DNA of 64,000 nt from Thermodesulfobacteriota bacterium (lineage in GTDB: Bacteria > Desulfobacterota_D > UBA1144 > Nemesobacterales > Nemesobacteraceae), in contig OZ242379.1 in NCBI GenBank assembly GCA_965209225.1, positions 934,762 through 998,761 of the forward strand, given 5' to 3'. Positions 11,765 to 46,884 of the stretch are shown here, piece after piece (the stretch's first letter is position 1; each line of letters begins with the position of its first letter). The position numbers and the translations under genes were made by a program. The notes under the pieces were generated by a model. The model was given only the letters and a program-made list of their open reading frames with translations. It ran no database searches and was not told where the DNA came from.

Positions 11765-12232
11765 TTACGATTTGTCTGATGATAGCGCTAACGTTATTTC
11801 TTTTAATACCTGTTTACGATTTTTCTTGATTTCATGTTCCCAAAACCGGAGAACTGTCCATCCGTTTCGTTTTAGATAAGCTGTGTTTCTTCTGTCTCGC
11901 TTGCGGTTGTTTTCTATTTTTTCCCTCCAGAAGTCATTTTTCAGCAAATGCTTCCATTTGGGATAATACCAACCATGCCAAAAATCGCTGTCTAAAAATA
12001 CGCAAACTTTATACTTTTGGAAAACTATGTCTGGTCTACCTCTAATTGAAATGACATTTGTCTGGAATTTCTTTCTCGTGATTTTTTTTAGTGCGTGCAC
12101 AATTTCTTGTTCAAATTTCGTTTCTTTTGAGCGAATCTTTGCCATTAATTCTGAGCGCTTTTCCGTTGAAAGCGAGTCATTGCTTCGTTCTTTTTTGAAG
12201 TTGCGATTCAAATAATTTTTTGTTCTTTTCAT
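11765..12232 (-). CDS. vsr: very short patch repair endonuclease
   Basis: RSELMAKIRSKETKFE, RGRPDIVF, VFLDSDFWHG and WEHE motifs of Vsr. Confidence 0.9.
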   Translation of the reverse strand: MKRTKNYLNRNFKKERSNDSLSTEKRSELMAKIRSKETKFEQEIVHALKKITRKKFQTNVISIRGRPDIVFQKYKVCVFLDSDFWHGWYYPKWKHLLKNDFWREKIENNRKRDRRNTAYLKRNGWTVLRFWEHEIKKNRKQVLKEITLALSSDKS

Positions 12233-13260
12233 GAAGTTCCAGAATCAAAGATATCCGAAGCTTTAACACCGTGTTTTGAGAAATTAAAATTCTCATCTAA
12301 CAACTTCTTCCACTGGTTTAGACGATTTTTTTTGGCGTTTTGTCGCCAATAATGATTTAGTTTTTCTTTGTCCATTGTTTTTATCTCACATCTGATCATA
12401 TTAGCTTTGGAGTGGAGATTATAGGCGATTCGCGGAACCAAGACGGATTTTTCTTTGATTGTTAGTTTTTTTCTTCCTCCTGCAGTGAACAAGTCTCTCA
12501 GGTTGGAAGCTATGACTCCATGCTCAGTCATGAGATAAGCGGAGACTCGTTGGAATTTCATCAAGCTCTCGCCAAAAATTTCTGGGAAAAGAATCATTAT
12601 CTCCGCTTTAATTTTTTCTTGTTTCTCCCTACGTAATCCTCTGTAAGGTTTAATTATGAAGTCAGAAGATTTGTCATCATTTTTGTCGATCCACCATAAT
12701 TCTTCTCCATCTTTTAGTATGCTTCTGTAGTAATCTTTTATTTTTCCTATTTTCTCATCGTCTTTTCGCAGTTTGTCGTAATCAACACCGATTTTGTCGA
12801 AAATAGATTCCCCTCTGGGTAAATTCATGTCTATACGGTAACGGGGCGAGTGAGTGACGCTCACGCCGGGTAGACATTCTTGGTATGGTCGATATCGAAC
12901 ATCCGGTGCGCCGCCAAGTTTCCCAAACATTATGTAAATTCGCTCAACATCCTCTCTGGATGATTCGAGGACACTGTTGCCGGTGGAAATCCAATGATCC
13001 TTTGAAGTCATTTTTACCTCGACGCCAAAGTATTTTTTAGCAACTATATCAGGGAAGGAGCGGGAATCTGTTTGTTGAATCTCTCCTTCGAAGCCGATTT
13101 CTTTGGCTTCTTTGCGCATTTTTTCATATACGAAGTTCTCAAAATCAATTGGTGAAATATTTTCCTCTTCAGGTAGAAAGTCGATCAGTAGTCTTCGAGT
13201 TTCTTCGAGAAGAGTTATAAATTCTTCTTCATCAAGGTCTGGGTTATTCACATAGATCAT
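12229..13260 (-). CDS. putative type II restriction endonuclease (PD-(D/E)xK), located between dcm and vsr
   Basis: FPDIVAKKYFGVEVK fits PD-x9-ExK. Its start ATG overlaps the dcm stop (ATGA coupling) when started at the internal Met (ORF track 12229-13311). Synteny M-R-V. Confidence 0.5.
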   Translation of the reverse strand: MIYVNNPDLDEEEFITLLEETRRLLIDFLPEEENISPIDFENFVYEKMRKEAKEIGFEGEIQQTDSRSFPDIVAKKYFGVEVKMTSKDHWISTGNSVLESSREDVERIYIMFGKLGGAPDVRYRPYQECLPGVSVTHSPRYRIDMNLPRGESIFDKIGVDYDKLRKDDEKIGKIKDYYRSILKDGEELWWIDKNDDKSSDFIIKPYRGLRREKQEKIKAEIMILFPEIFGESLMKFQRVSAYLMTEHGVIASNLRDLFTAGGRKKLTIKEKSVLVPRIAYNLHSKANMIRCEIKTMDKEKLNHYWRQNAKKNRLNQWKKLLDENFNFSKHGVKASDIFDSGTS

Positions 13261-14051
13261 GAATGCAGGTTCACGTTTATAAATTCTTCGATTGATGTTG
13301 CGAGATACCACGCAAGTACGGGAGGAACTGCGTTACCAATTTGCTTGTAGGCTTGCGATGTTGAAGGATAAAAAATAAAATCGTCAGGGAACGACTGTAT
13401 TCTTGCAGCTTCTCTGGCGGATAATCGCCGTTTGCCATTCCAGTGGAATTCAATGTTCCCGTGATGTTCTGTTCTCATAGTGGGACCAGGCTTATCAGGA
13501 TCTAAAATGTTATTCCCCTGTCCTTTGTTTTTTTTCGCTTTGGACCAATAATGATTAGGTAATTCTCCCTCCCTAACGGTTTCTAAATCACCAATAGCTT
13601 CCCTTAAGGTAATCCATTTGTTTTTATTTGGGGGTTTCGGGTATTCAAATGGAGGCAATTTGCTTCTCTTGGTGCCGATTATAAAAATTCGTTTTCTAGT
13701 CTGTGGGACGCCATAATCCGCTGCGATAAGTAGTTTGTAAACAACGTGATAACCTAAGTCTTCAAAATTATTGATTATGGTTTTTATCGCTTCACCGCGG
13801 TCTATAGTGAGAAGCCCTTGCACATTTTCTGCTACGAACACCAGAGGATTAGTCAACTGGACAACTTTGGCCATGCTTCTGTACAATGCACCCCGCTCGC
13901 TTTTTAAGCCTTTTCGTCTTCCAGCATGGCTAAAGTCTTGGCAGGGAAATCCCCCTAGAACAATATCTGTATTTATCTGGTGGTGATTATTGAAGGGAAA
14001 CAGACTTGGGTCTTTGCTGTTGCATATCTCCGTGATATCAGCATTTACCAA
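13257..14051 (-). CDS. dcm: DNA (cytosine-5)-methyltransferase, C-terminal part (motifs IV-X), lacks motif I because of an inversion
   Basis: GGFPCQDFSHAG (IV), ENV (VI), QTRKRIFIIG (VIII), REAARIQSFPDDF (IX), GNAVPPVLA (X); begins with TTG right at the inversion junction, stop codon immediately upstream. Confidence 0.85.
   Translation of the reverse strand: MVNADITEICNSKDPSLFPFNNHHQINTDIVLGGFPCQDFSHAGRRKGLKSERGALYRSMAKVVQLTNPLVFVAENVQGLLTIDRGEAIKTIINNFEDLGYHVVYKLLIAADYGVPQTRKRIFIIGTKRSKLPPFEYPKPPNKNKWITLREAIGDLETVREGELPNHYWSKAKKNKGQGNNILDPDKPGPTMRTEHHGNIEFHWNGKRRLSAREAARIQSFPDDFIFYPSTSQAYKQIGNAVPPVLAWYLATSIEEFINVNLHS
14036..14048. repeat. left 13-bp inverted repeat (tatcagcatttac) at inversion junction
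   Basis: Perfect reverse complement of 14298-14310. Confidence 0.85.
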
Positions 14052-21060: not shown

Positions 21061-22200
21061 CTATGCCGTTCCCAGCATTTCCGATACTTTGGCAACACCA
21101 GCTCCGCTCGTGAAGTCGTGTCCCAAGGATCCCAGAATGGATTCAAGGGCCGAGACAAACGCCACCATGTCGTTTCGGTCGACATCTCCTATGTGGGATA
21201 CCCTGAAGATTTTTCCCTTGGCGTGGTCCTGTCCGCCCGCGACGGTCATACCGAATTTTGCCTGAAGCTCGGAGATGATCTTCCCCGCCCCTATCTCTTC
21301 AGGAGCTACTCCCACGGTAAGAGCCGGGCTCGCCGCGTCAGTGGTGAAAAGATCTATGTTGATCGCTTGTAGCGCCTCTCGGGTCGCAAGCGACATCAGT
21401 TCGCGTTTTCTGTAAATATTGTCCATTCCCTCTTCCATGAACCCTTCTATAACCTTGCCGAGGCCGATTATCAGAGTGACGGCGGGAGTCCATGGCGTCG
21501 TGTTTTTCTGGGCGCTTTTCTGGTAGTCGGCAAAGTTGAGATAGAACTTCGGGAGATCCGAGGTTTTGCTGAATTCCCAGGCTTTCTCGCTCATCGCCGC
21601 GAATGAAAGTCCCGGAGGAAGCATGAAAGCCTTCTGCGAGCCGCCAACTAGAACATCTATTCCCAGCTTGTCAAACGGGAGAGGAAACACCCCGACGGCG
21701 GTTATGCCGTCAACTATGAGCAGCACGTCGTCTCTTTTTGATGTAATTGCCGCGACTTGGTCGGTGGGATGCTTGACCCCTGTGGAGGTCTCGCTTGCCT
21801 GCATCAGAACAGCCCTTATCGAGGGGTCGCTATCGAGTTTTTCCTCTATCACTGCCGGGGAAACCGCCTCGCCCCAAGCAACCTCTATTTCATCCACCTC
21901 TAGTCCGTAGGCCCTCGCGATTTTCCCCCATCTCTCTCCGAACTTTCCGCCGTTTACCGTGATCACCTTGTCGCCCGCGCGAAGGGTGTTTACCACGGCT
22001 CCTTCCATTGCGCCGGTTCCCGAAGCCGCAAGTATGAAAACTTCGGTTTCTGTCTGAAAAATCTGTTTCAAACCTTCTCTTGCCTTCTCGAATACGGCTT
22101 CAAATTCCTTGGTTCTGTGATGGATGAGCGGTCTTGCCATCTCAACCATTATTTCGCTTGGGACCGCCACGGGGCCGGGGGTCAGCAGCAATCTTTTCAT
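21061..22200 (-). CDS. class V aminotransferase (alanine-glyoxylate / serine-pyruvate aminotransferase family)
   Basis: LLTPGP start, GGSQKA PLP-lysine motif. Confidence 0.85.
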   Translation of the reverse strand: MKRLLLTPGPVAVPSEIMVEMARPLIHHRTKEFEAVFEKAREGLKQIFQTETEVFILAASGTGAMEGAVVNTLRAGDKVITVNGGKFGERWGKIARAYGLEVDEIEVAWGEAVSPAVIEEKLDSDPSIRAVLMQASETSTGVKHPTDQVAAITSKRDDVLLIVDGITAVGVFPLPFDKLGIDVLVGGSQKAFMLPPGLSFAAMSEKAWEFSKTSDLPKFYLNFADYQKSAQKNTTPWTPAVTLIIGLGKVIEGFMEEGMDNIYRKRELMSLATREALQAINIDLFTTDAASPALTVGVAPEEIGAGKIISELQAKFGMTVAGGQDHAKGKIFRVSHIGDVDRNDMVAFVSALESILGSLGHDFTSGAGVAKVSEMLGTA

Positions 22201-22523
22201 TTTGATTTATCTCCTGTAGTGCTAGGAATTGGATAAAAACCGATAAACTACCCTAACATTCCTACTATTTCAATTGTGTTGTCGGTGCTTGTCGGTGCTC
22301 CGTTTAGTAATGAGTCAATTTGATCAGCGCAGTAAACTTTGGGAAAGAATTGACAAAATATCTTAGCATCTAAAAGGGGATTGGGCATATGATTCCCATT
22401 TCCTTTATATTTCCATTATCCGAGGCACGAAAAGATCAAGAAACGATCAAAGATTGGTTTACAATACCCGCTGATTCTAGGGTGCTTACTGTAAACACCT
22501 GACTTAGTGAACTGGAACAACTC

Positions 22524-22913
22524 ATGGCAATAATATACTCGGACGAGGAGATTAGATCGTTGGTTCAAGAACATAAGCCTTTGCCTGTTGATTGGCGTAA
22601 ACAGTCTGGTCTGAGACCCAAACGAGGTCACGATGAGCAGCAACTGGAATTTGTTGGTAGCGCAAACAGCAAATTCCGTATTATTTTCAGACGGAGCCAT
22701 ATTAATCCACTTGATTTTTCGATCATTCTTGCTGTTCATGTCCCTCAATCAAATCAAGTTTTTCGCCTTCGTCGTTACAATGGTAGAAGCCACGAGCACA
22801 CAAACCATATTGAAGATGTGACTTTCTACGATTTCCATATTCACTTTGCTACGGAGCGATATCAGGGGATTGGGGCACGGGAAGATGCCTATGCTCAACC
22901 GACCGATCGCTAG
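22524..22913 (+). CDS. hypothetical protein in AT-rich region flanking IS unit
   Basis: 129-aa ORF, no motif recognised. Confidence 0.3.
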   Translation: MAIIYSDEEIRSLVQEHKPLPVDWRKQSGLRPKRGHDEQQLEFVGSANSKFRIIFRRSHINPLDFSIILAVHVPQSNQVFRLRRYNGRSHEHTNHIEDVTFYDFHIHFATERYQGIGAREDAYAQPTDR

Positions 22914-22934
22914 AGCGATCTCTACGGAGCTCTT

Positions 22935-22942
22935 AAATGTTT
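22935..22942. repeat. left target-site duplication AAATGTTT
   Basis: Identical 8-mer directly abuts both IS termini, same strand. Confidence 0.7.
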
Positions 22943-23019
22943 GGGAATTATGTATTTGACTTGACAAGACATAACACAGGATATAGAATTGTGCCTAATC
23001 CCCTGAAAGGGCGCAATTC

Positions 23020-23388
23020 ATGGACTCTTGGAAGTTTGCTTGCACTGAAACCGCTATTTTCCTCTTCGGAGTTTGGGTAAGTTCTATGTTTCCAGATTTT
23101 TCCCATTGGATTTGGCCTGTTGTAGCCTTAATGCTTTTTCTTTTTGGAATGGGAAAGTTCGACACGCCTACAAATTGGATTTTCCGAAGAGAAAAAAAAC
23201 CTGCTGATGACAATATCCATGCAGAATTAGTTGCTCTTGCGAGAAGAGTTCAGCGAGGCGAAGCTACTTTCGAGCAGGAAAAACGATATCATACAATTCT
23301 TGCACGGCATCCCCTTTATTGGCATGATAACCCTGAAGATTACGAGAAGATAATACAGAAAGCACGTTCATTGGCCAGATTTGCATAA
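23020..23388 (+). CDS. cargo: hypothetical membrane protein
   Basis: Two predicted TM helices, inside IS unit. Confidence 0.4.
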   Translation: MDSWKFACTETAIFLFGVWVSSMFPDFSHWIWPVVALMLFLFGMGKFDTPTNWIFRREKKPADDNIHAELVALARRVQRGEATFEQEKRYHTILARHPLYWHDNPEDYEKIIQKARSLARFA

Positions 23389-23607
23389 TTGTTGATATTG
23401 TTCAGTCGCTTTCTTCGTCTTCGTAAATAGTAATTTCTTCCCCTTCCGGTGGAACCCCCATCAGAACTCGGACTACATCGTCAAACTCCAACTGCGACAT
23501 GTCGGGAATCTGTGGTTCGGTTTCTTTCTTGTCTGGCATTACTGGGCACCCCTAAGCTTTTCAGAATGGGTACAGTCTACCTGATTCCGAAGATTTTTCA
23601 ACGTCAT

Positions 23608-23979
23608 CTAATGTCTCTGCTCTCCCATTATCCCTAACTGTTCTCGGATTTTTCTTTCCTGTTCACTTAACCCTTGTTTCTCCTTCTTTTTCATTCCCAA
23701 TTGCCTTCTGAACTCATCCCCGCTGTCGTCCATAGAGAGAAAAGAACCCATTTTGGAAGCAACGCTTCTTCTTGGTTTTCTTTCGGGCAACTCTATGCCA
23801 TGCTTGATGGCTATTTTCCGTAATATCTCCAGTTCTTCCTCTTGTGCCTCGGCTCTTTTTGCTTCTTGGTGGCTTGAGGCTATCTTAAAGGCTGCATTAG
23901 TCGTAGTGTTGAAAACACCGAGCACAAGCATAAAAAACATAAAAACACCACCAATCAGAATCCATATCAGAAACAACAT
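23608..23979 (-). CDS. cargo: hypothetical membrane-anchored protein
   Basis: N-terminal TM helix then charged coiled region. Confidence 0.4.
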   Translation of the reverse strand: MLFLIWILIGGVFMFFMLVLGVFNTTTNAAFKIASSHQEAKRAEAQEEELEILRKIAIKHGIELPERKPRRSVASKMGSFLSMDDSGDEFRRQLGMKKKEKQGLSEQERKIREQLGIMGEQRH

Positions 23980-23992
23980 TCTTCAAACCTCC

Positions 23993-24142
23993 TTAGTCAT
24001 TCGGGCAATGGCACTCGATTGCGTTCCCTGCTGTGTCCACGACCTTGGTTTCGCAGTTCACGGGGCAATCCTCCAAGTCGAACAGGTCGCAAGCTGCGAC
24101 GAGCAGAAAAAGCAAAACGCACAACCCCCAAACAACTTTCAT
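23993..24142 (-). CDS. cargo: small Cys-rich lipoprotein (about 49 aa; mature peptide about 31 aa with 5 Cys)
   Basis: MKVVWGLCVLLFLLVAAC lipobox signal followed by CPVNC...CHC. Confidence 0.4.
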   Translation of the reverse strand: MKVVWGLCVLLFLLVAACDLFDLEDCPVNCETKVVDTAGNAIECHCPND

Positions 24143-40212: not shown

Positions 40213-41331
40213 TCAGTTAACGGTATCCGGCAAGCGGTAGCTTGTGCTTCGTCCGCCGCCGGGGTTCTGAATAAAAATGCCGCGTGACTTTAAGTGCTGA
40301 ATGTCCCGTAATGCCGTATCTGTGGAGCACTTGGCCAGTTTTGCATATTTTGAGGTGTTCATGTGTCCCTTAAAATCATCCTCGAGCATACGGTTAATAA
40401 TCAGACGCTGACGCTTGTTGACAGGCTGCCGATTAATCTTTTCCCATAACTGCGATTTAAACAAGACGGTGCTCAGCGTATCTTCAGCGCTGGCAATTGC
40501 GCGACCAAGGCAATCCAGAAACCATTCAAGCCAACCCGTTACCTCCGGCGTGCCGCGTTGCTGGTTTTCCAACTGGTCATAATAATCCTTGCGCTCAGAT
40601 TCAAATTGCGATGAAAGGCTGTAAAAGCGGTCTACCATGCCGTCAGCGCGCGCCAGGGCCATATCGGCAATCGCCCTTGCAATACGTCCATTACCGTCTT
40701 CAAATGGATGAATCGTCACAAACCACAGATGGGCAATACCGGCTCTGAGCACGGGGTCAGTATCATCTTTGCTCTCAAACCATACCAGAAACCTCGTCAT
40801 CTCACGTTCAAGGTGCTCTGCGTTCGGAGCCTCGAAATGAACTTTTTCACGTCCTGCAGGACCTGAAACCACTTGCATGGGATCGGATTCGACGGAGCGC
40901 CAGCCGCCGACTGTGATGCGACGCATGCCGCTGCGACTTGTTGGAAACAGTGCCGCATGCCAGTCAAACAATCTGTCTTTTGTTAAGGGCCTGGCAGATT
41001 GCTGGGTCGCATCCAGCATCATTTCAACAATACCCTCAACATCTTGGTTCACTGACGTAATGCCGGCGATATCAATGCCTAGTCGGCGAGCGATTGATGA
41101 GCGAACCTCTTGCGGGTTCAGATTTTCTCCCTCGATGGCTGATGATTTAACAACATCGCTTGTCAGTGTTCCGAGACTTGCTTCTTGCTTGAGTTCGAAA
41201 CCTAATCCTTCCATTCTGCCTAACAGACGACCCTGACGGTGTCGAATATCTGCAAGCTTGGAAGCGAGTTTTTTGAGATTCCAAGTGAAGTCCGGCCAGT
41301 TATGATGCTCATGTATCCACATATCATTCAC
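40213..41331 (-). CDS. Fic family protein with DUF4172-type N-terminus and C-terminal wHTH; compositionally foreign
   Basis: HPFEDGNGRIARAIAD Fic motif, SSAIEGE inhibitory motif; codon usage (CTG/CGT/GCG-rich) differs from neighbours. Confidence 0.9.
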   Translation of the reverse strand: MNDMWIHEHHNWPDFTWNLKKLASKLADIRHRQGRLLGRMEGLGFELKQEASLGTLTSDVVKSSAIEGENLNPQEVRSSIARRLGIDIAGITSVNQDVEGIVEMMLDATQQSARPLTKDRLFDWHAALFPTSRSGMRRITVGGWRSVESDPMQVVSGPAGREKVHFEAPNAEHLEREMTRFLVWFESKDDTDPVLRAGIAHLWFVTIHPFEDGNGRIARAIADMALARADGMVDRFYSLSSQFESERKDYYDQLENQQRGTPEVTGWLEWFLDCLGRAIASAEDTLSTVLFKSQLWEKINRQPVNKRQRLIINRMLEDDFKGHMNTSKYAKLAKCSTDTALRDIQHLKSRGIFIQNPGGGRSTSYRLPDTVN

Positions 41332-41396
41332 CGCGTTGTTTGCAGTGATTGTATCTTGTATTAATCACGCAAGCAAGAAAATCGCCGCAAAATATA

Positions 41397-41421
41397 CGGT
41401 GAATAAATGTGCTATTCACCG
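41397..41421. promoter_or_regulatory. perfect 9-bp-arm palindrome CGGTGAATA-n7-TATTCACCG upstream of foreign Fic gene (operator candidate)
   Basis: Inverted repeat within the 266-bp Fic-tRNA intergenic region. Confidence 0.4.
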
Positions 41422-41597
41422 CATAACAGCATGGATGGCTTTTTTCGGTTCTTCGTATATATGACGATTACCTAAGCTTGGATTAGGCGTATATGTTTCG
41501 ATACGGTTTGCTTTTTCCAAGAATAAGGTTCGGCCGGCAATACTTGGCTTCCGACGGAGTTTGCTGTCTCTGGATAGAATAACTCGGGGTGAGCTGA

Positions 41598-41688
41598 TGG
41601 CGGAGGGAGTGGGATTCGAACCCACGAGGGCCAAAAAGACCCCACTGGTTTTCGAGACCAGCGCCTTAAACCGCTCGGCCATCCCTCC
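41598..41688 (-). tRNA. tRNA-Ser (CGA), long variable arm, CCA encoded
   Basis: Reverse complement reads GGAGGGATGGCCGAGCGGTTTAAGGCG...CTCGAAA anticodon loop...GGTTCGAATCCCACTCCCTCCGCCA. Confidence 0.9.
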
Positions 41689-41783
41689 TCCGACACGCAA
41701 AACAGGCTACCGAAGCCCGAGGGGCAAGGCAACATCTCCCGGAAAGTTTTGTTATTAACGCCTCTGTGTAAACTTAAGCGGAT

Positions 41784-44288
41784 ATGATTGAAAGCTACTT
41801 TACCCCTGAGGCTGCAGAGTTCATCAGGGAGGCAATAACTGAGGCCTATGGAAACGAGGTCTTTTTAGTCGGCAGGGTAAATGAAAATTCTCTGGTCTGC
41901 GATATAAAAGTCCTTGCGCGCGGCAACCGCCAGGCGGTTCCGGCCATCCTTGACGCGGCGAAAACGGGGAACGTGGTTGTGCATAATCATCCCTCGGGCA
42001 ACCTCGAACCTTCACCCCAGGACGTGGCAGTCGCTTCGGCTTTCGGAAACAAGGGCGTCGGTTTCTACATAGTGGACAGCGAGGTCGAGAAGGTGTACGT
42101 AGTTGTTGAGCCTTTTGTTCCGGGGGAGAAGGTACGTGTTGACAATGAATCCGCGAGGGAATATCTTCTGCCCGCAGGTCCCGTGGCCCGCGTCCTGGGA
42201 GAGAAATACGAGCACAGGGAGGAGCAGCTGGAAGTCCTCTCAAACGTAATTGACGCATTCAACGAGGAACACCTCTCAATGATAGAGGCCGGCACGGGCA
42301 CCGGAAAAACTCTTTCCTACCTCATCCCTTCCATTCTCTGGTCAATTGGCAACAGTGAGAGGGTTCTGGTCTCAACAAACACCATCAATCTTCAGGAACA
42401 GCTGATAAACAAGGATCTTCCCCTTCTTCGGGATCTTTTCCCGAGGAAATTTGATTACGCTCTCGTTAAGGGAATGAGAAACTACTTCTGTCTTCTCCGC
42501 GGCGAAGCCGTCGGGCAGGATCTTTTCGATTTTATAGACGACGGGGAAAGAGGTTCCATGAAGGATATTCTTGAGTGGGCCAGGACCACCTCGGACGGCT
42601 CACTTTCCGATCTTGCGCTCACGCCCCCTGACGATGTGTGGGACAGGGTGTCTGCGGAAAGCGAAAGCTGCCCGGGGACCAAGTGCCCCCACTATTCGAG
42701 CTGCTTTTTCTTCAAGTCGCGGAGGGATCTCTCGAGGGCCTCGGTGCTGGTTGCCAACCACCACATGCTTTTCTCCGATATTGCTATAAAAGGGACTGCG
42801 GGACCCGATTCGGATTTCGGGATAATTCCCCGCTACGCGAAGGTCGTTTTCGACGAGGCGCACAATATCGCCGAGGCGGCCACTTCGCACTTCAGTCTGA
42901 AACTTAGCAAGCACGGAATTGCGAAGACGCTTTCAAAGCTTCGTTCCCGGAAAAACAGGGACAAGGGGCTTGTATCCTACATCTCGCACCTCGCGCAGAA
43001 AGAAAAGGATTCCGCCCTCAGGGAGGTTTTCGAGCGCTCGGCCGGCGGGCTTGCGAGGGCCGTTGAGCGCATAGAGACGGTAAGCGAAGAGGTCTTTAAT
43101 TCGCTTTACGGTTTTGGGGCGGATCTCTCGGGCGAAACGTCGATAAGCCTGAGGCTCACAGAAGAGGTTATGCGGCACGAGAAGTGGCCTGCCGTTGAGG
43201 AGCGGTTCGGGGCGCTTGAGAAAACTCTCTTTTCGCTTGAAAACGAGATTGCCCATCTGCTCGGAGTAGTCGAGGGATCACCTCACGCGGATTCCCACAT
43301 AAAACTCACCGCTGAGCTTGGAGGCATCGCTAAGAGGTCCCTTGCTTTCCGCGAAGCCATAGGAAGGTTTTTTGGCGAGCAGGACGAGAGCTATATAAGA
43401 TGGTTTGAAGGGAACCGCAGAAGGGCGGCGATTTTCTGCTCCATCAACCTCTCCCCGCTTGATGTATCCAAGGAGCTTTCGGAAAAGCTCTACTCGAAAA
43501 CCAAAACCGTCGTTATGACTTCCGCGTCGCTTGCCGTGGATAAGAATTTCGATTTCCAGAGGAAAAACATCGGGCTTTCGGATAATGAAAGATTCAGGGG
43601 GCTTATTGTTGATTCACCGTTTGATTTCCGAACGCAGTCCCTGCTGCTGGTCCCGTCGGATATGCCCGAGCCCGGGCGCGAGGACTACGAAGATTCCCTC
43701 GCGCGGATACTCTCGGACTCGATCTCCGTAACGAACGGAAACGCCCTCGTGCTTTTCACCTCTTATTCCTCGCTTAACAGGGTTTATGAAAAGACGGGGA
43801 AAATTCTTGAGACCATCGGGGCCGTCCCGGTCAGTCTTTTCAGGCAGGGGGAAATGCCCAGGGGTCTGCTGCTTGAAAAATTCAAAACGCTTGGGAACTC
43901 GGTGCTTTTCGCGACCGACAGCTTCTGGGAAGGAGTAGACATTCCCGGGGACTCCCTGAAGATGGTCGTTATATGCAGACTTCCCTTCAAGGTTCCCACG
44001 GATCCGGTTACGGAGGCGAAAATCGAGTACATGGAAAAACAGGATATGGATTCGTTTCGCGAATACATACTTCCCCACGCGGTACTCAGGTTCAAGCAGG
44101 GCTTCGGAAGACTCATACGCACCAAGACGGACCGCGGTGTTGTTATGGTTCTTGACAGGCGCATCGTGTCGAAGTACTACGGGAAATTCTTTATCAACTC
44201 CGTTGCGGGGAGCGGCTTCTTCTGCGCGAAGACGGAACAGGTACTCGGACGGATGCGGGATTTTTTCTCTGAGGAGCGAGAGCACTGA
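41784..44288 (+). CDS. dinG: RadC-like JAB/MPN domain fused to DinG-family (Rad3/XPD-like) ATP-dependent DNA helicase
   Basis: N-terminal HNHPSGNLEPSPQD JAMM/RadC motif (aa ~60-75); then Walker A AGTGTGKT, DEAH box VVFDEAHN and C-terminal helicase motifs. Confidence 0.8.
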   Translation: MIESYFTPEAAEFIREAITEAYGNEVFLVGRVNENSLVCDIKVLARGNRQAVPAILDAAKTGNVVVHNHPSGNLEPSPQDVAVASAFGNKGVGFYIVDSEVEKVYVVVEPFVPGEKVRVDNESAREYLLPAGPVARVLGEKYEHREEQLEVLSNVIDAFNEEHLSMIEAGTGTGKTLSYLIPSILWSIGNSERVLVSTNTINLQEQLINKDLPLLRDLFPRKFDYALVKGMRNYFCLLRGEAVGQDLFDFIDDGERGSMKDILEWARTTSDGSLSDLALTPPDDVWDRVSAESESCPGTKCPHYSSCFFFKSRRDLSRASVLVANHHMLFSDIAIKGTAGPDSDFGIIPRYAKVVFDEAHNIAEAATSHFSLKLSKHGIAKTLSKLRSRKNRDKGLVSYISHLAQKEKDSALREVFERSAGGLARAVERIETVSEEVFNSLYGFGADLSGETSISLRLTEEVMRHEKWPAVEERFGALEKTLFSLENEIAHLLGVVEGSPHADSHIKLTAELGGIAKRSLAFREAIGRFFGEQDESYIRWFEGNRRRAAIFCSINLSPLDVSKELSEKLYSKTKTVVMTSASLAVDKNFDFQRKNIGLSDNERFRGLIVDSPFDFRTQSLLLVPSDMPEPGREDYEDSLARILSDSISVTNGNALVLFTSYSSLNRVYEKTGKILETIGAVPVSLFRQGEMPRGLLLEKFKTLGNSVLFATDSFWEGVDIPGDSLKMVVICRLPFKVPTDPVTEAKIEYMEKQDMDSFREYILPHAVLRFKQGFGRLIRTKTDRGVVMVLDRRIVSKYYGKFFINSVAGSGFFCAKTEQVLGRMRDFFSEEREH

Positions 44289-44297
44289 ATTTCTTAG

Positions 44298-44684
44298 ATG
44301 CGTAGAGCGAAAAACGGCGAAAAGCAGCGGCTGGAGAATGTTTTCAGAAAACTAGGCAGATCCCGGTTCCGTTCCGGGTTCAGGCTGAATGCCAAGGAGA
44401 CGTCTTATCTCAGGCAAAAAGGGCTCCCCGAAGTGCTTTCGCACGGAAGGGATTTCCTTCTCAAAAGGCTTGCCCCCGCTTTGCCCCCTGACGACGGGAA
44501 GCAGACTCCGTGGGGCGGACATCCCGTGTTTCGCGCCCAGCATGCCACGGCCACATGTTGTCGGAGCTGCCTGCTGAAGTGGCACGGCATCCCTAAGAAA
44601 AGAAAGCTCACGGAACAGGAAATTGATTATATTCTTCTGGCAATTGAGATGTGGCTTTCGGCTCAGGGAGTTCCGCAGGAGTGA
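44298..44684 (+). CDS. DUF4186 family protein
   Basis: RLAPALPPDDGKQTPWGGHPVFRAQHATATCCRSCLLKWHGI conserved core. Confidence 0.7.
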   Translation: MRRAKNGEKQRLENVFRKLGRSRFRSGFRLNAKETSYLRQKGLPEVLSHGRDFLLKRLAPALPPDDGKQTPWGGHPVFRAQHATATCCRSCLLKWHGIPKKRKLTEQEIDYILLAIEMWLSAQGVPQE

Positions 44685-44757
44685 TTTCCAAAAAAATTTT
44701 GTTTTATGTTAAAATATCGGGAGATATAGAAAGTTTTATGTTACGGAGCTAGAAAAC

Positions 44758-46884
44758 ATGGATGAAGAAACGCCGGCGCTGCCCGAGCTTGTAGCGGATG
44801 AGATCGACGAATTCGAACAGCAGGTCTCCGACTACATGAACGGGAAGATAAGCGAGGTGAAATTCCAGAAGATAAGACTCCAGCTGGGGGTGTACGCGCA
44901 GCGCCAGGAAGGAGTCCAGATGCAGAGGATAAAGATTCCCTACGGGAAACTGAGTTCCGCTCAACTGAGAAAACTTGCGGACGTTTCAGACAAGTACGCA
45001 AGTGGCTTCTTTCACCTTACGACCCGTCAGGACGCTCAGCTTTACTACGTCAACCTCAAAACTGTTCCCGACATGATGAGGGATCTTGCAAGTGCGGGGA
45101 TCACAACTCGCGAAGCCTGCGGCAACACAATAAGAAACGTCACGGCTTCCCCGGTAACCGGGGCTTCGCCTACGGAAACCTTTGACGTGACTCCTTACGC
45201 CGAGGCGTTTAAGCAGTTTATGCTCCGAAACCCCATATGCCAGAACATGGGAAGGAAATTCAAGGTCTGCTTTGAGAGCAACCCGGACGTCGACAACGCG
45301 GGAATCCGCATCCATGATCTGGGTTTTCGCGCCAGAGTAAGGGAAGAGGATGGAAAGCACGGCTTTCAGGTCTACGTCGGCGGGGGGCTCGGCGCTTCGC
45401 CTTCGCTCGGACATCTCTGGACGGAATTCATGCCGGTTGAGGAGATGATACCTTTTTCGGCTTCGGTCGTCAGGATCTTTGACAGGTACGGCGAGAGAAA
45501 GGTTAGGATGAAGGCCAGAATGAAGTTTCTTGTGAGGAAACTTGGCTTTGAGAAGTTCAGAGAGGTAGTCGAGCAGGAAAGGGCTTCGCTTGAGGTCGAT
45601 CCTTCGTGGAACGACTATCTTGAGGCAATCGACCGGGAGCACGAAACCCCCGGGCCGAACGGACACGACCTTCCGGACGCTCCTGTCTGGGTGGAGGATG
45701 ACCCGGGTTTTACGGAGTGGCGGCGAAAGAACGTTTCTCCGGCGGGGGTCGAGGGATATTCGATCGTTAACGTGAGAGTGCTTCTGGGAGACGTTCCGGC
45801 CGATACCGCAAGAGCGCTTGCGGACATGATAGACACTTACGCGGACGGTTCCATACGGATAACTATCCAGCAGAATTTCGTGATCAGATGGGTTCCCGAC
45901 CAGTCCATCCCCTCGCTTTACGCCGACCTTAAAGAGACGGGCATTTCTGATTCGGGCGCGGACACTTTCGAAGATGTAACCGCCTGCCCGGGTGCCGACA
46001 CCTGCCGTCTGGGCATCACTTCGGCCAAGGGCCTTGCGACGAAGCTTACCAGCATGATGGATAACGGTCTTGGAAAATACAAGGAGACTCTCGGGGATCT
46101 CAGGATCAAGATATCCGGCTGCCCCAACGCTTGCGCTCAGCATGTTTCGGCCAGCATAGGGTTCCAGGGAGCGTCCATAACCAGAGAAGGCAGAAGCGTT
46201 CCTGCCGAGATGCTTTTCCTCGGCGGAGGACTTTACGGAGACGACTCGCGCCTTGCTATGCCGGTCACCAAGATTCCGACCAGAAACGCTCCCAAGGTTG
46301 TCCAGAGACTGCTTGAGATATACGAGAGGGAAAAAGAGGATGGCGAGCATTTTGACCTCACGATGAAAAGGCTCGGCGCCAAGTACATCAAGGAAGCGGT
46401 CTCCGAGTTCAACGAGATTCCCTCGTACGAGGATGATCCCGATTTTTACACCGACTGGGGACACGAAGAGAAGAAATTCGCCGTTCAGCAGGGAGTGAGA
46501 GGAGAGTGCGCGGGGGTTACCGTCGAGGAGAAGATCCCGGTTTTCTCAGACGCGGAAAAGCGTCTTGAGCGGGCCCAGGCCCTTTTCCTGCACGGCGACT
46601 ACGAGGCATGCATAAACGAGCTTTACCTTGCGTGTTCCGAGAGCGCCCATGTACCTCTCTACACCAAGCTTGTCGACCCGTTCACTCCGGAGCAGACGAT
46701 CTGGGAGTTTGAGAACCTTATCGTGAGAACCGGGGAAACCGATGAGAAATGGTTTGACGTCTCGCGCAGACTGGGCGAATATAGGAATGGAGAGGCGTCG
46801 GCGTCAAAAGCCATAGAGTTTCTTGAAGTTGCCAAGGGTTTTCACTCCGACTGCGAGAGGGTTCAGGAGCAACTGATTGCGTAG
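44758..46884 (+). CDS. nitrite/sulfite reductase family hemoprotein (siroheme/4Fe-4S, ferredoxin-dependent type) with C-terminal extension
   Basis: CPGADTCRLG and SGCPNACAQH cluster-binding motifs, duplicated NiR/SiR ferredoxin-like halves. Confidence 0.85.
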   Translation: MDEETPALPELVADEIDEFEQQVSDYMNGKISEVKFQKIRLQLGVYAQRQEGVQMQRIKIPYGKLSSAQLRKLADVSDKYASGFFHLTTRQDAQLYYVNLKTVPDMMRDLASAGITTREACGNTIRNVTASPVTGASPTETFDVTPYAEAFKQFMLRNPICQNMGRKFKVCFESNPDVDNAGIRIHDLGFRARVREEDGKHGFQVYVGGGLGASPSLGHLWTEFMPVEEMIPFSASVVRIFDRYGERKVRMKARMKFLVRKLGFEKFREVVEQERASLEVDPSWNDYLEAIDREHETPGPNGHDLPDAPVWVEDDPGFTEWRRKNVSPAGVEGYSIVNVRVLLGDVPADTARALADMIDTYADGSIRITIQQNFVIRWVPDQSIPSLYADLKETGISDSGADTFEDVTACPGADTCRLGITSAKGLATKLTSMMDNGLGKYKETLGDLRIKISGCPNACAQHVSASIGFQGASITREGRSVPAEMLFLGGGLYGDDSRLAMPVTKIPTRNAPKVVQRLLEIYEREKEDGEHFDLTMKRLGAKYIKEAVSEFNEIPSYEDDPDFYTDWGHEEKKFAVQQGVRGECAGVTVEEKIPVFSDAEKRLERAQALFLHGDYEACINELYLACSESAHVPLYTKLVDPFTPEQTIWEFENLIVRTGETDEKWFDVSRRLGEYRNGEASASKAIEFLEVAKGFHSDCERVQEQLIA

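What the first reader, a model, noticed from the sequence alone, without database searches (positions are those of the whole stretch)
41784..44288. Unusual fusion of a RadC-like JAB/MPN domain (HNHPSGNLEPSPQD) to the N-terminus of a DinG-family helicase
DinG homologs are usually stand-alone or, in Firmicutes, fused to a DnaQ-like exonuclease. Here the first ~115 aa carry the complete H-x-H-P-x-G-x3-P-S-x2-D JAMM-like signature of RadC. An Fe-S/DEAH helicase core follows. A predicted nuclease/peptidase-like RadC module coupled to a 5'-3' helicase would be a distinctive DNA-processing enzyme.
Basis: partly seen in the sequence, partly recalled or inferred. Interest (0 to 1): 0.6.

Follow-up and report, generated by a model that had tools for sequence, protein, structure and literature searches.

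The report
Known RadC-JAB/DinG helicase fusion protein
The gene really does encode a DNA helicase with a small zinc-hydrolase (RadC/JAB) domain fused to its front end, but this design occurs in many bacterial phyla, has been described in the literature since 2011, and has never had its chemistry tested.

Summary

It is not a frameshift artefact. Colinear proteins of about 830 aa occur in more than 12 phyla, and the JAB domain is more conserved (47% identity to the window protein) than the helicase (36%). All five JAMM residues are present in 67 of 67 sequences.

It is not new. Iyer et al. (NAR 2011; J Bacteriol 2017) described exactly this fusion and used it to propose that RadC-type JAB domains are nucleases. 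A 2025 review names the subgroup "RadC-like DinG". The window protein is 46% identical to that review's reference member across the JAB domain, linker and helicase.

The setting is housekeeping. There is no family-wide operon partner and no CRISPR or cas genes.

The most likely function is a helicase-coupled zinc hydrolase that processes DNA during repair, but the substrate (DNA or DNA-linked protein) is untested. Novelty: already known. Interest is low to moderate.

The parts
41784..44288 (+). Complete RadC-like DinG gene (834 aa plus stop)
   Evidence: Single ORF. Colinear homologs of 831-856 aa at 47-94% identity and at 33-48% across phyla.
41784..42119 (+). RadC-type JAB/MPN domain, residues 1-112
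41856..41858 (+). Glu25, the predicted general base of the JAMM site
   Evidence: Present in 67 of 67 cross-phylum fusion proteins. The review names the equivalent Glu at the beta1 N-terminus.
41982..42023 (+). H67-N-H69-P-S-G-x3-P-S77-x2-D80 zinc-binding/catalytic motif
   Evidence: Motif located. H67, H69, S77 and D80 are present in 67 of 67 sequences. The motif is intact in 120 of 120 close hits and in 76 of 80 species-representative loci.
42120..42203 (+). Inter-domain linker, residues 113-140 (helices 121-128 and 133-141)
   Evidence: AF2 secondary structure. Only 23% mean identity, but E115, L128, P130 and G132 are conserved. The frame is continuous, with no stop.
42204..44285 (+). DinG/YoaA-type SF2 helicase core, residues 141-834 (MD1, Fe-S insert, Arch, MD2)
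   Evidence: NCBIfam YoaA 543 bits, PRK08074 497 bits, PRK11747 404 bits. phmmer hit to 6FWR at 2e-47. Foldseek hit to 6fwr at 2.2e-30.
42288..42311 (+). Walker A motif (A169-GTGTGKT-176)
   Evidence: Invariant in A1. K175 is present in 67 of 67 sequences.
42489..42704 (+). Fe-S cluster insert with C236, C296, C301, C307
   Evidence: Cysteine positions. Invariant in A1. Across phyla: C301 and C307 in 67/67, C236 in 65/67, C296 in 59/67. Low pLDDT without the cluster.
42852..42863 (+). Walker B / DEAH box (D357-E-A-H360)
   Evidence: Position. D357 and E358 in 67/67, H360 in 66/67.
43716..44204 (+). Helicase_C_2 (MD2) domain, residues 645-807
   Evidence: Pfam PF13307, E=2.1e-46.

Best explanation
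This is a chromosomal, housekeeping member of the already described 'RadC-like DinG' subgroup. I put the identity claim at about 0.95 and the nucleic-acid-substrate mechanism at about 0.4-0.45; the single figure given is a compromise between them. The C-terminal 690 residues form an ATP-driven Fe-S helicase of the DinG/YoaA branch. By homology with DinG and XPD it should translocate 5'->3' on single-stranded DNA (inferred, not shown here). The N-terminal 112 residues form a RadC-clade JAB domain whose zinc site (E25, H67, H69, S77, D80) is intact and universally conserved, so it is almost certainly a working metal-dependent hydrolase (inferred from conservation). It sits at exactly the position taken by the DnaQ 3'-5' exonuclease in the closely related ExoDinG proteins. 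The domain itself is acidic, so the most likely mechanism is that the helicase binds and threads the DNA strand and presents it, or a structure on it, to the JAB site. The JAB site then hydrolyses a bond in or on the nucleic acid, acting as a nuclease or similar nucleic-acid-processing enzyme during DNA repair or clearance of replication obstacles.
For: Identity: Pfam RadC + DEAD_2 + Helicase_C_2. 46% identity, colinear and with E=1e-116, to the review's reference protein A0A0M4DKS9 across JAB, linker and helicase. Full-length matches to Geobacter, Citrifermentans, Brachyspira, Treponema, Brocadiaceae and others. Active hydrolase: all five JAMM residues in 67/67 sequences, and the JAB domain more conserved (47%) than the helicase (36%); motif intact in 147 of the 150 best representatives. 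JAB fold with RadC 2QLC as the hit with the highest sequence identity. Positional equivalence with a nuclease: residues 138-828 align to positions 252-929 of the ExoDinG model PRK08074, which places the JAB domain where the exonuclease domain (model positions 1-250) would be. The same argument is published (PMC3239186; PMC5512222). Repair context in some lineages: an Nfo-like AP endonuclease lies 11-61 nt upstream on the same strand in 7 loci, and an MBL/beta-CASP-like hydrolase lies upstream in 4 loci. DNA delivered by the helicase: JAB net charge is -7 in the window and averages -6.2 in the family. Housekeeping setting: fmt, amt, pilM, RNase R, rpiA and transketolase nearby.
Against: No RadC-type JAB domain has been shown to cut nucleic acid. 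Every biochemically characterised structural neighbour is an isopeptidase (review Table S2). [quoted passage not shown] E. coli radC mutants show normal sensitivity to DNA damage (Attaiech 2008, as cited). No operon partner is conserved family-wide that would pin down a pathway. I could not inspect model coordinates, so the distance between the zinc site and the DNA path is unknown.
Confidence: 0.5

Rival explanations
1. The JAB domain is a peptidase, not a nuclease. The helicase runs along ssDNA until it meets a covalently attached protein or peptide (a DNA-protein crosslink, a trapped topoisomerase or relaxase, or an HMCES/YedK-type adduct), and the JAB site cleaves the protein or its linkage. 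This would be a single-polypeptide bacterial analogue of the eukaryotic FANCJ helicase plus SPRTN protease pair (own knowledge, not tested here).
Against: [quoted passage not shown] No paper in the searchable library links RadC to crosslink repair. No ubiquitin-like or substrate-tagging genes lie nearby. The idea rests on analogy only.
Confidence: 0.15
2. The JAB domain is non-catalytic. It would act as a structural, DNA-binding or protein-docking module that regulates the helicase, for example by replacing the HolC-dependent recruitment used by YoaA.
For: The review notes that organisms with RadC-like DinG lack HolC, and that the YoaA-like C-terminal helix must therefore serve another purpose. 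Iyer et al. report fusobacterial versions that have lost their zinc ligands. Many eukaryotic MPN domains are scaffolds (for example Rpn8, CSN6 and Prp8 among the hits).
Against: E25, H67, H69, S77 and D80 are each present in 67 of 67 cross-phylum proteins, and the JAB domain is the second most conserved segment of the protein. The motif is intact in 147 of the 150 best representatives. In my 80-locus sample, no full-length fusion protein had lost the motif.
Confidence: 0.07
3. It is a defence-system helicase (a type IV CRISPR-associated CasDinG/Csf4 or another phage-defence DinG), not a repair enzyme.
For: A PADLOC model labelled 'CAS-IV-A; associated' typeIV_DinG scores 437 bits over residues 141-808. 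The adjacent Fic gene hits the SoFic defence model at 2.7e-44.
Against: The curated Csf4 model TIGR03117 scores 100 bits against a cutoff of 400. YoaA (543 bits) and ExoDinG (497 bits) models score higher. There are no CRISPR-like repeats within +/-12 kb and no csf or cas genes; the neighbours are housekeeping. The gene sits in varied chromosomal contexts across phyla, with no recurring defence partner.
Confidence: 0.03
4. The fusion is an assembly or annotation artefact: two adjacent genes (radC and dinG) joined by a sequencing frameshift or a missed stop.
For: None was found.
Against: There is one open frame with no stop. 120 independent database clusters have 831-856 aa and about 99% coverage. 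Full-length colinear matches occur in 76 of 80 species-representative genomes from many phyla. The linker has conserved residues.
Confidence: 0.01

Closest known systems
RadC-like DinG subgroup (named in PMC11981726, 2025; fusion first reported by Iyer, Zhang, Rogozin & Aravind, NAR 2011, PMC3239186); reference protein Desulfuromonas soudanensis A0A0M4DKS9
   Same: Same architecture, order and length: an N-terminal JAB domain with E/HxH/D, a linker, then a 4-Cys Fe-S DinG core with a C-terminal helix. 46% identity, colinear, over the 399 reference residues available.
   Different: Nothing architectural. The window protein comes from a different lineage (closest named relatives are Candidatus Dadabacteria), which the review's Table S1 does not list.
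YoaA (E. coli HolC-associated DinG paralog; NCBIfam NF053712)
   Same: Best-scoring helicase model (543 bits, residues 128-807). The review also finds the core most YoaA-like.
   Different: The score is below the equivalog cutoff of 680. YoaA has no N-terminal JAB domain. Organisms with RadC-like DinG are reported to lack HolC.
ExoDinG (Firmicute DnaQ-exonuclease/DinG fusions; PRK08074, TIGR01407; structures 8ZEF/9II8 of S. aureus DinG)
   Same: Closely related helicase core (497 bits; phmmer 2.9e-46 to 8zef; Foldseek 8e-27 to 9ii8) with an extra hydrolase domain fused at the same N-terminal position.
   Different: The N-terminal domain is a JAB (deaminase-like) fold rather than an RNase H-fold DnaQ exonuclease. 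Model positions 1-250 are unmatched.
Canonical RadC (HhH + JAB; PRK00024, TIGR00608; structure 2QLC)
   Same: Same JAB clade: the HNHPSG-x3-PS-x2-D signature, the Pfam PF04002 hit, and 2QLC as the best sequence-profile hit.
   Different: It lacks the N-terminal helix-hairpin-helix region. Full-length RadC models score 19-23 bits against cutoffs of 134-180. The domain is fused to a helicase rather than standing alone.
JAMM/MPN+ isopeptidases (Rpn11, CSN5, PfJAMM1, AfJAMM)
   Different: Sequence identity is only 13-20%. It is a minimal domain without the insertions that grip ubiquitin tails (per PMC5512222), and no ubiquitin-like partner is evident.

Membership tests
RadC-like DinG subgroup | N-terminal RadC-type JAB domain directly preceding the helicase in one polypeptide | tested here: met
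RadC-like DinG subgroup | Conserved putative catalytic centre: one Glu, two His, one Asp (review section 3.8) | tested here: met
   E25, H67, H69 and D80 (plus S77) are present and occur in 67 of 67 family members.
RadC-like DinG subgroup | DinG-type core with MD1, Fe-S (4 Cys), Arch and MD2 and intact ATP-binding motifs | tested here: met
   domains; Walker A, DEAH, C236/296/301/307; model matches 6FWR DinG at 2.2e-30.
RadC-like DinG subgroup | Colinear similarity to a named reference member | tested here: met
   46% identity, E=1e-116, to the first 399 aa of D. soudanensis A0A0M4DKS9 (only 399 residues of the reference were retrievable). Full-length matches in Geobacter, Citrifermentans and Brocadiaceae.
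RadC-like DinG subgroup | Host genome lacks HolC (a correlate reported by the review) | not testable with these tools
   Only a 64-kb window is available, and the exact protein is not on record elsewhere.
YoaA (NF053712 equivalog) | Score at or above the curated cutoff (680 bits) | tested here: not met
   543.2 bits.
E. coli-type DinG (NF008729) / Bacillus-type DinG (NF005981) | Score at or above the curated cutoffs (598 / 789 bits) | tested here: not met
   404 and 496.9 bits.
ExoDinG (TIGR01407 / PRK08074) | N-terminal DnaQ-family 3'-5' exonuclease domain | tested here: not met
   The alignments begin at model positions 244 and 252. The exonuclease part of the models is unmatched, and no exonuclease Pfam hit was found.
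CasDinG / Csf4 (type IV CRISPR) | Curated Csf4 model score, plus adjacency to csf genes or a CRISPR array | tested here: not met
   TIGR03117 scores 100 bits against a cutoff of 400. No repeats within +/-12 kb. Neighbours are housekeeping. Only a generic PADLOC 'associated' DinG model hits.
Canonical RadC protein (PRK00024 / TIGR00608) | Full-length HhH + JAB protein scoring above cutoff | tested here: not met
   23.1 and 19 bits against cutoffs of 180 and 133.85. Only the motif region at residues 39-85 matches.
JAMM/MPN+ metallo-isopeptidases | E...HxH-x7-S-x2-D motif on an MPN fold | tested here: met
JAMM/MPN+ metallo-isopeptidases | Ubiquitin/Ubl C-terminal tail-binding groove and a Ubl substrate | not tested
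   Model coordinates cannot be inspected with these tools. PMC5512222 says the RadC clade lacks the groove. No Ubl gene is near the locus.

The most novel reading that the evidence does not exclude
The RadC-type JAB domain is a peptidase that removes proteins or peptides covalently attached to DNA when the fused 5'->3' Fe-S helicase runs into them. That would make RadC-like DinG a one-polypeptide bacterial counterpart of the eukaryotic FANCJ-SPRTN crosslink-repair pair, and it would finally give the RadC family a biochemical function.
Probability: 0.12. Interest if true: 0.8.

Novelty: already known. Interest (0 to 1): 0.22.

Why it matters
RadC is among the most widespread bacterial proteins whose function is still unknown; its repair role has been disputed since the 1980s ('RadC, a misleading name?'). 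The helicase fusion is the strongest contextual clue to what the RadC JAB domain does. This analysis adds quantitative support: the JAB domain is more conserved than the helicase, and its catalytic residues are universally retained. As a discovery, though, the architecture is already published and named, so this window adds only one more ortholog, from a Dadabacteria-like lineage. The real value lies in the untested biochemistry, not in this locus.

Tried and rejected
1. Word-index search with the N-domain alone found only one 188-aa fragment and was uninformative. The exhaustive representative search replaced it.

2. Conserved operon partner. tblastn of the window's neighbours (RNase R, Fic, DUF4186, sulfite-reductase-like, CBS) against 80 loci found them only in the closest relative. 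Clustering all flanking ORFs gave no family present in more than 10 of 80 loci. DUF4186 persists at 74-86% identity but is gone at 48%. I therefore rejected it as a functional partner.

3. Promoter and terminator scan of 41300-44900 gave nothing above the shuffled expectation that bears on regulation. I did not search for a LexA box.

I worked around this by aligning the window's N-domain to full-length hits.

5. An apparent N-terminal truncation of the JAB domain in two spirochaete loci proved to be an artefact of my start-codon rule.

6. CasDinG/defence reading: rejected.

7. The exact window protein is not on record in public assemblies, so the source genome could not be retrieved for a HolC/RadC census.

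8. Literature searches for experimental work on RadC-like DinG, or on RadC as a crosslink protease, found none.

Full report
**Observation**

The reported coordinates hold exactly. Window 41784..44288 (+) is one open reading frame of 834 codons starting at ATG. It begins 95 nt downstream of a tRNA-Ser(CGA) gene on the opposite strand.

- Pfam recognises RadC (PF04002, residues 10-86, E=1.2e-6, 28.8 bits against a cutoff of 22.1), DEAD_2 (304-377) and Helicase_C_2 (645-807, E=2e-46).
- NCBIfam aligns residues 128-807 to YoaA (543 bits), 138-828 to the Bacillus-type DinG model PRK08074 (497 bits) and 141-806 to E. coli-type DinG (404 bits). All three are below their equivalog cutoffs.
- The quoted motif HNHPSGNLEPSPQD is at residues 67-80. 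GTGKT is at 172 and DEAH at 357. Cysteines at 236/296/301/307 have the C-x59-C-x4-C-x5-C spacing typical of the DinG Fe-S cluster.

**The N-terminal domain is a RadC-clade JAB domain**

- A 58-sequence profile of the domain (A2) finds the RadC crystal structure 2QLC at E=5.4e-8, followed by the archaeal AfJAMM at about 0.03.
- An AlphaFold2 model of residues 1-140 is confident (mean pLDDT 85.4, pTM 0.74). Its elements are H8-20, E26-32, E38-46, H51-58, E64-68, H78-89, E93-97 and E104-108, followed by two linker helices.
- The full-length model (pLDDT 73.5; the Fe-S insert 231-311 scores low, as expected without the cluster) matches E. coli DinG 6FWR (2.2e-30), S. aureus DinG and XPD.

**It is not an artefact**

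- The full-length search returned 120 clusters of 831-856 aa with about 99% coverage and 47-94% identity. Most already carry PF04002 in precomputed annotation, and all 120 keep H-x-H-x7-S-x2-D.
Among the 80 kept, there are full-length colinear matches in Thermodesulfobacteriota, Geobacter/Citrifermentans/Desulfuromonadales, KSB1, Hydrogenedentota, Sumerlaeota, Planctomycetota (Brocadiaceae), Bacillota (Halanaerobiales), Spirochaetota (Brachyspira, Treponema), Fusobacteria, Acidobacteriota, Myxococcota, Deferribacteres and others.
- 76 of the 80 have the intact motif. The four exceptions are two genes cut by contig ends and two Chlamydiae DinGs that lack the domain altogether.
- An exhaustive phmmer search of residues 1-140 against 1.84 billion cluster representatives gave 601 hits at E<=1e-3 and 432 at E<=1e-10. 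Of the best 150, 76 are at least 780 aa and 22 are shorter but include the Walker A motif. Most of the remainder end in linker or helicase sequence or in out-of-frame tails, so they are fragments of fusion proteins. This N-domain family therefore lives almost exclusively on DinG helicases.

**Conservation**

I aligned 66 full-length proteins from across the phyla with the window protein. Mean identity to the window protein by region:

| Region | Mean identity |
|---|---|
| JAB domain | 47% |
| Linker | 23% |
| First half of MD1 | 54% |
| Fe-S insert | 34% |
| Arch | 16% |
| MD2 | 41% |
| Helicase overall | 36% |

E25, H67, H69, S77 and D80 are each present in 67 of 67 sequences, as are K175, D357 and E358. 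C301 and C307 are in 67/67, C236 in 65/67 and C296 in 59/67. The JAB domain is consistently acidic, with a net charge of -7 here and a family mean of -6.2 (sd 2.6). I read this as strong purifying selection on a catalytically competent zinc site in a domain that probably does not grip DNA by itself.

**Context**

- The closest named relatives (the cluster at 88% identity) are annotated 'helicase [Candidatus Dadabacteria bacterium]'. The closest species-representative genome is a Thermodesulfobacteriota MAG at 68% (L073). The exact protein is not on record.
- The neighbourhood is housekeeping: formyltransferase, ammonium transporter, porin, PilM, RNase R, a Fic protein, tRNA-Ser, then RadC-DinG, DUF4186 (10 nt downstream), a sulfite/nitrite-reductase-like protein, CBS, RpiA, and further on transketolase.
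- This synteny is kept in relatives at 86% and 74% identity and is gone at 48%. None of the window's neighbours recurs in the other phyla, and no flanking gene family is present in more than 10 of 80 loci.
- Two lineage-specific neighbours hint at repair: an Nfo-like AP endonuclease (PF01261) lies 11-61 nt upstream on the same strand in 7 loci, and an MBL/RMMBL hydrolase lies upstream in 4 loci.
- There is no CRISPR-like repeat within +/-12 kb. The curated Csf4 model scores 100 bits against a cutoff of 400. The 437-bit hit to a PADLOC 'CAS-IV-A; associated' DinG model therefore reflects generic DinG similarity.

**What is already known**

[quoted passage not shown] - The same group repeated this in 2017 and added that RadC JABs probably lack the ubiquitin-tail groove (PMC5512222).
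- A 2025 review (PMC11981726) defines 'RadC-like DinG' as one of ten DinG subgroups. [quoted passage not shown]
- The window protein is 46% identical (E=1e-116), without rearrangement, to the first 399 residues of that reference protein as retrieved from the review's Table S1.
- Searches for later experimental work found none.

**Mechanism**

Shown here: the architecture, the fold, the intact and universally conserved zinc site, the intact ATPase and Fe-S motifs, and the positional equivalence with the exonuclease of ExoDinG (the alignment to PRK08074 starts at model position 252).

Inferred from family knowledge: 5'->3' translocation on ssDNA (DinG/XPD family) and zinc-dependent hydrolysis (JAMM chemistry).

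Inferred by me: because the domain is acidic and tethered by a short two-helix linker to MD1, the helicase most likely presents the substrate to it.

- My leading model, at about 0.4-0.45, is a helicase-coupled nucleic-acid hydrolase acting in repair or obstacle clearance.
- The main rival, at about 0.15, is a peptidase acting on protein covalently bound to DNA. It fits the structural neighbours better but has no direct support.
- A purely regulatory domain (about 0.07) is disfavoured by the 67/67 conservation of the catalytic residues.
- A defence role (about 0.03) and an artefact (about 0.01) are effectively excluded.

**Verdict**

However, the fusion is neither rare nor new. It is a named, widely distributed and experimentally uncharacterised subgroup, and this locus is an ordinary chromosomal ortholog. 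Novelty: already known. Interest: 0.22, which reflects the still-open RadC question and not anything specific to this window.

Noticed in passing
window 44298-44684 (+): A DUF4186 gene (PF13811, E=8.7e-46) starts 10 nt after the RadC-DinG stop codon and is probably co-transcribed with it. The pairing is kept in relatives at 64-86% identity (L073, L081, L082) but absent at 48% identity and in other phyla, so it looks like local synteny and not a functional module.
   Followed up: yes
window 40213-41331 (-), next to tRNA-Ser(CGA) at 41598-41688 (-): A DUF4172-Fic protein matches the PADLOC single-gene defence model SoFic over its full length (E=2.7e-44, 150 bits). It is present at the same spot in L073 and L081, but in L082 small HTH genes occupy that position, which suggests a variable slot beside the tRNA gene.
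   Followed up: partly
related loci, e.g. L048 4055-4915 (+) and L021 4033-4986 (+): In 7 of 80 loci (example: L048, Halanaerobiales) an Nfo-like AP endonuclease (PF01261) lies 11-61 nt upstream of RadC-DinG on the same strand. In 4 loci (example: L021, KSB1) an MBL/RMMBL (beta-CASP-like) hydrolase lies upstream. These are lineage-specific hints of a DNA-repair operon.
   Followed up: partly
alignment of 67 full-length RadC-DinG proteins; window residues C236 and C296 (nt 42489-42491, 42669-42671): Two of the four Fe-S cysteines are not universal: C296 is Ser or Thr in 8 of 67 sequences and C236 is Ser in 2 of 67, while the JAMM residues are in 67 of 67. Some members may have lost or altered the Fe-S cluster while keeping the JAB site.
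   Followed up: no
L043 about 5001-5100 and L052 about 5001-5100: In two spirochaete loci the JAB-domain reading frame is open and aligns from residue 1, but there is no ATG/GTG/TTG at the aligned N-terminus. These genes may use a non-canonical start codon. My ORF caller wrongly shortened them.
   Followed up: partly
L069 and L072 (Chlamydiae MAGs): These DinG helicases are about 36-37% identical to the window protein's core but have only 55-65 residues before the Walker A motif and no JAB domain. They are close relatives of the fusion family that lack the N-domain.
   Followed up: no
window 12001-14000 and 22001-24000: Two segments have clearly lower G+C (0.394 and 0.428) than the window's typical 0.49-0.54. 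They may be islands of foreign origin. I did not examine them.
   Followed up: no
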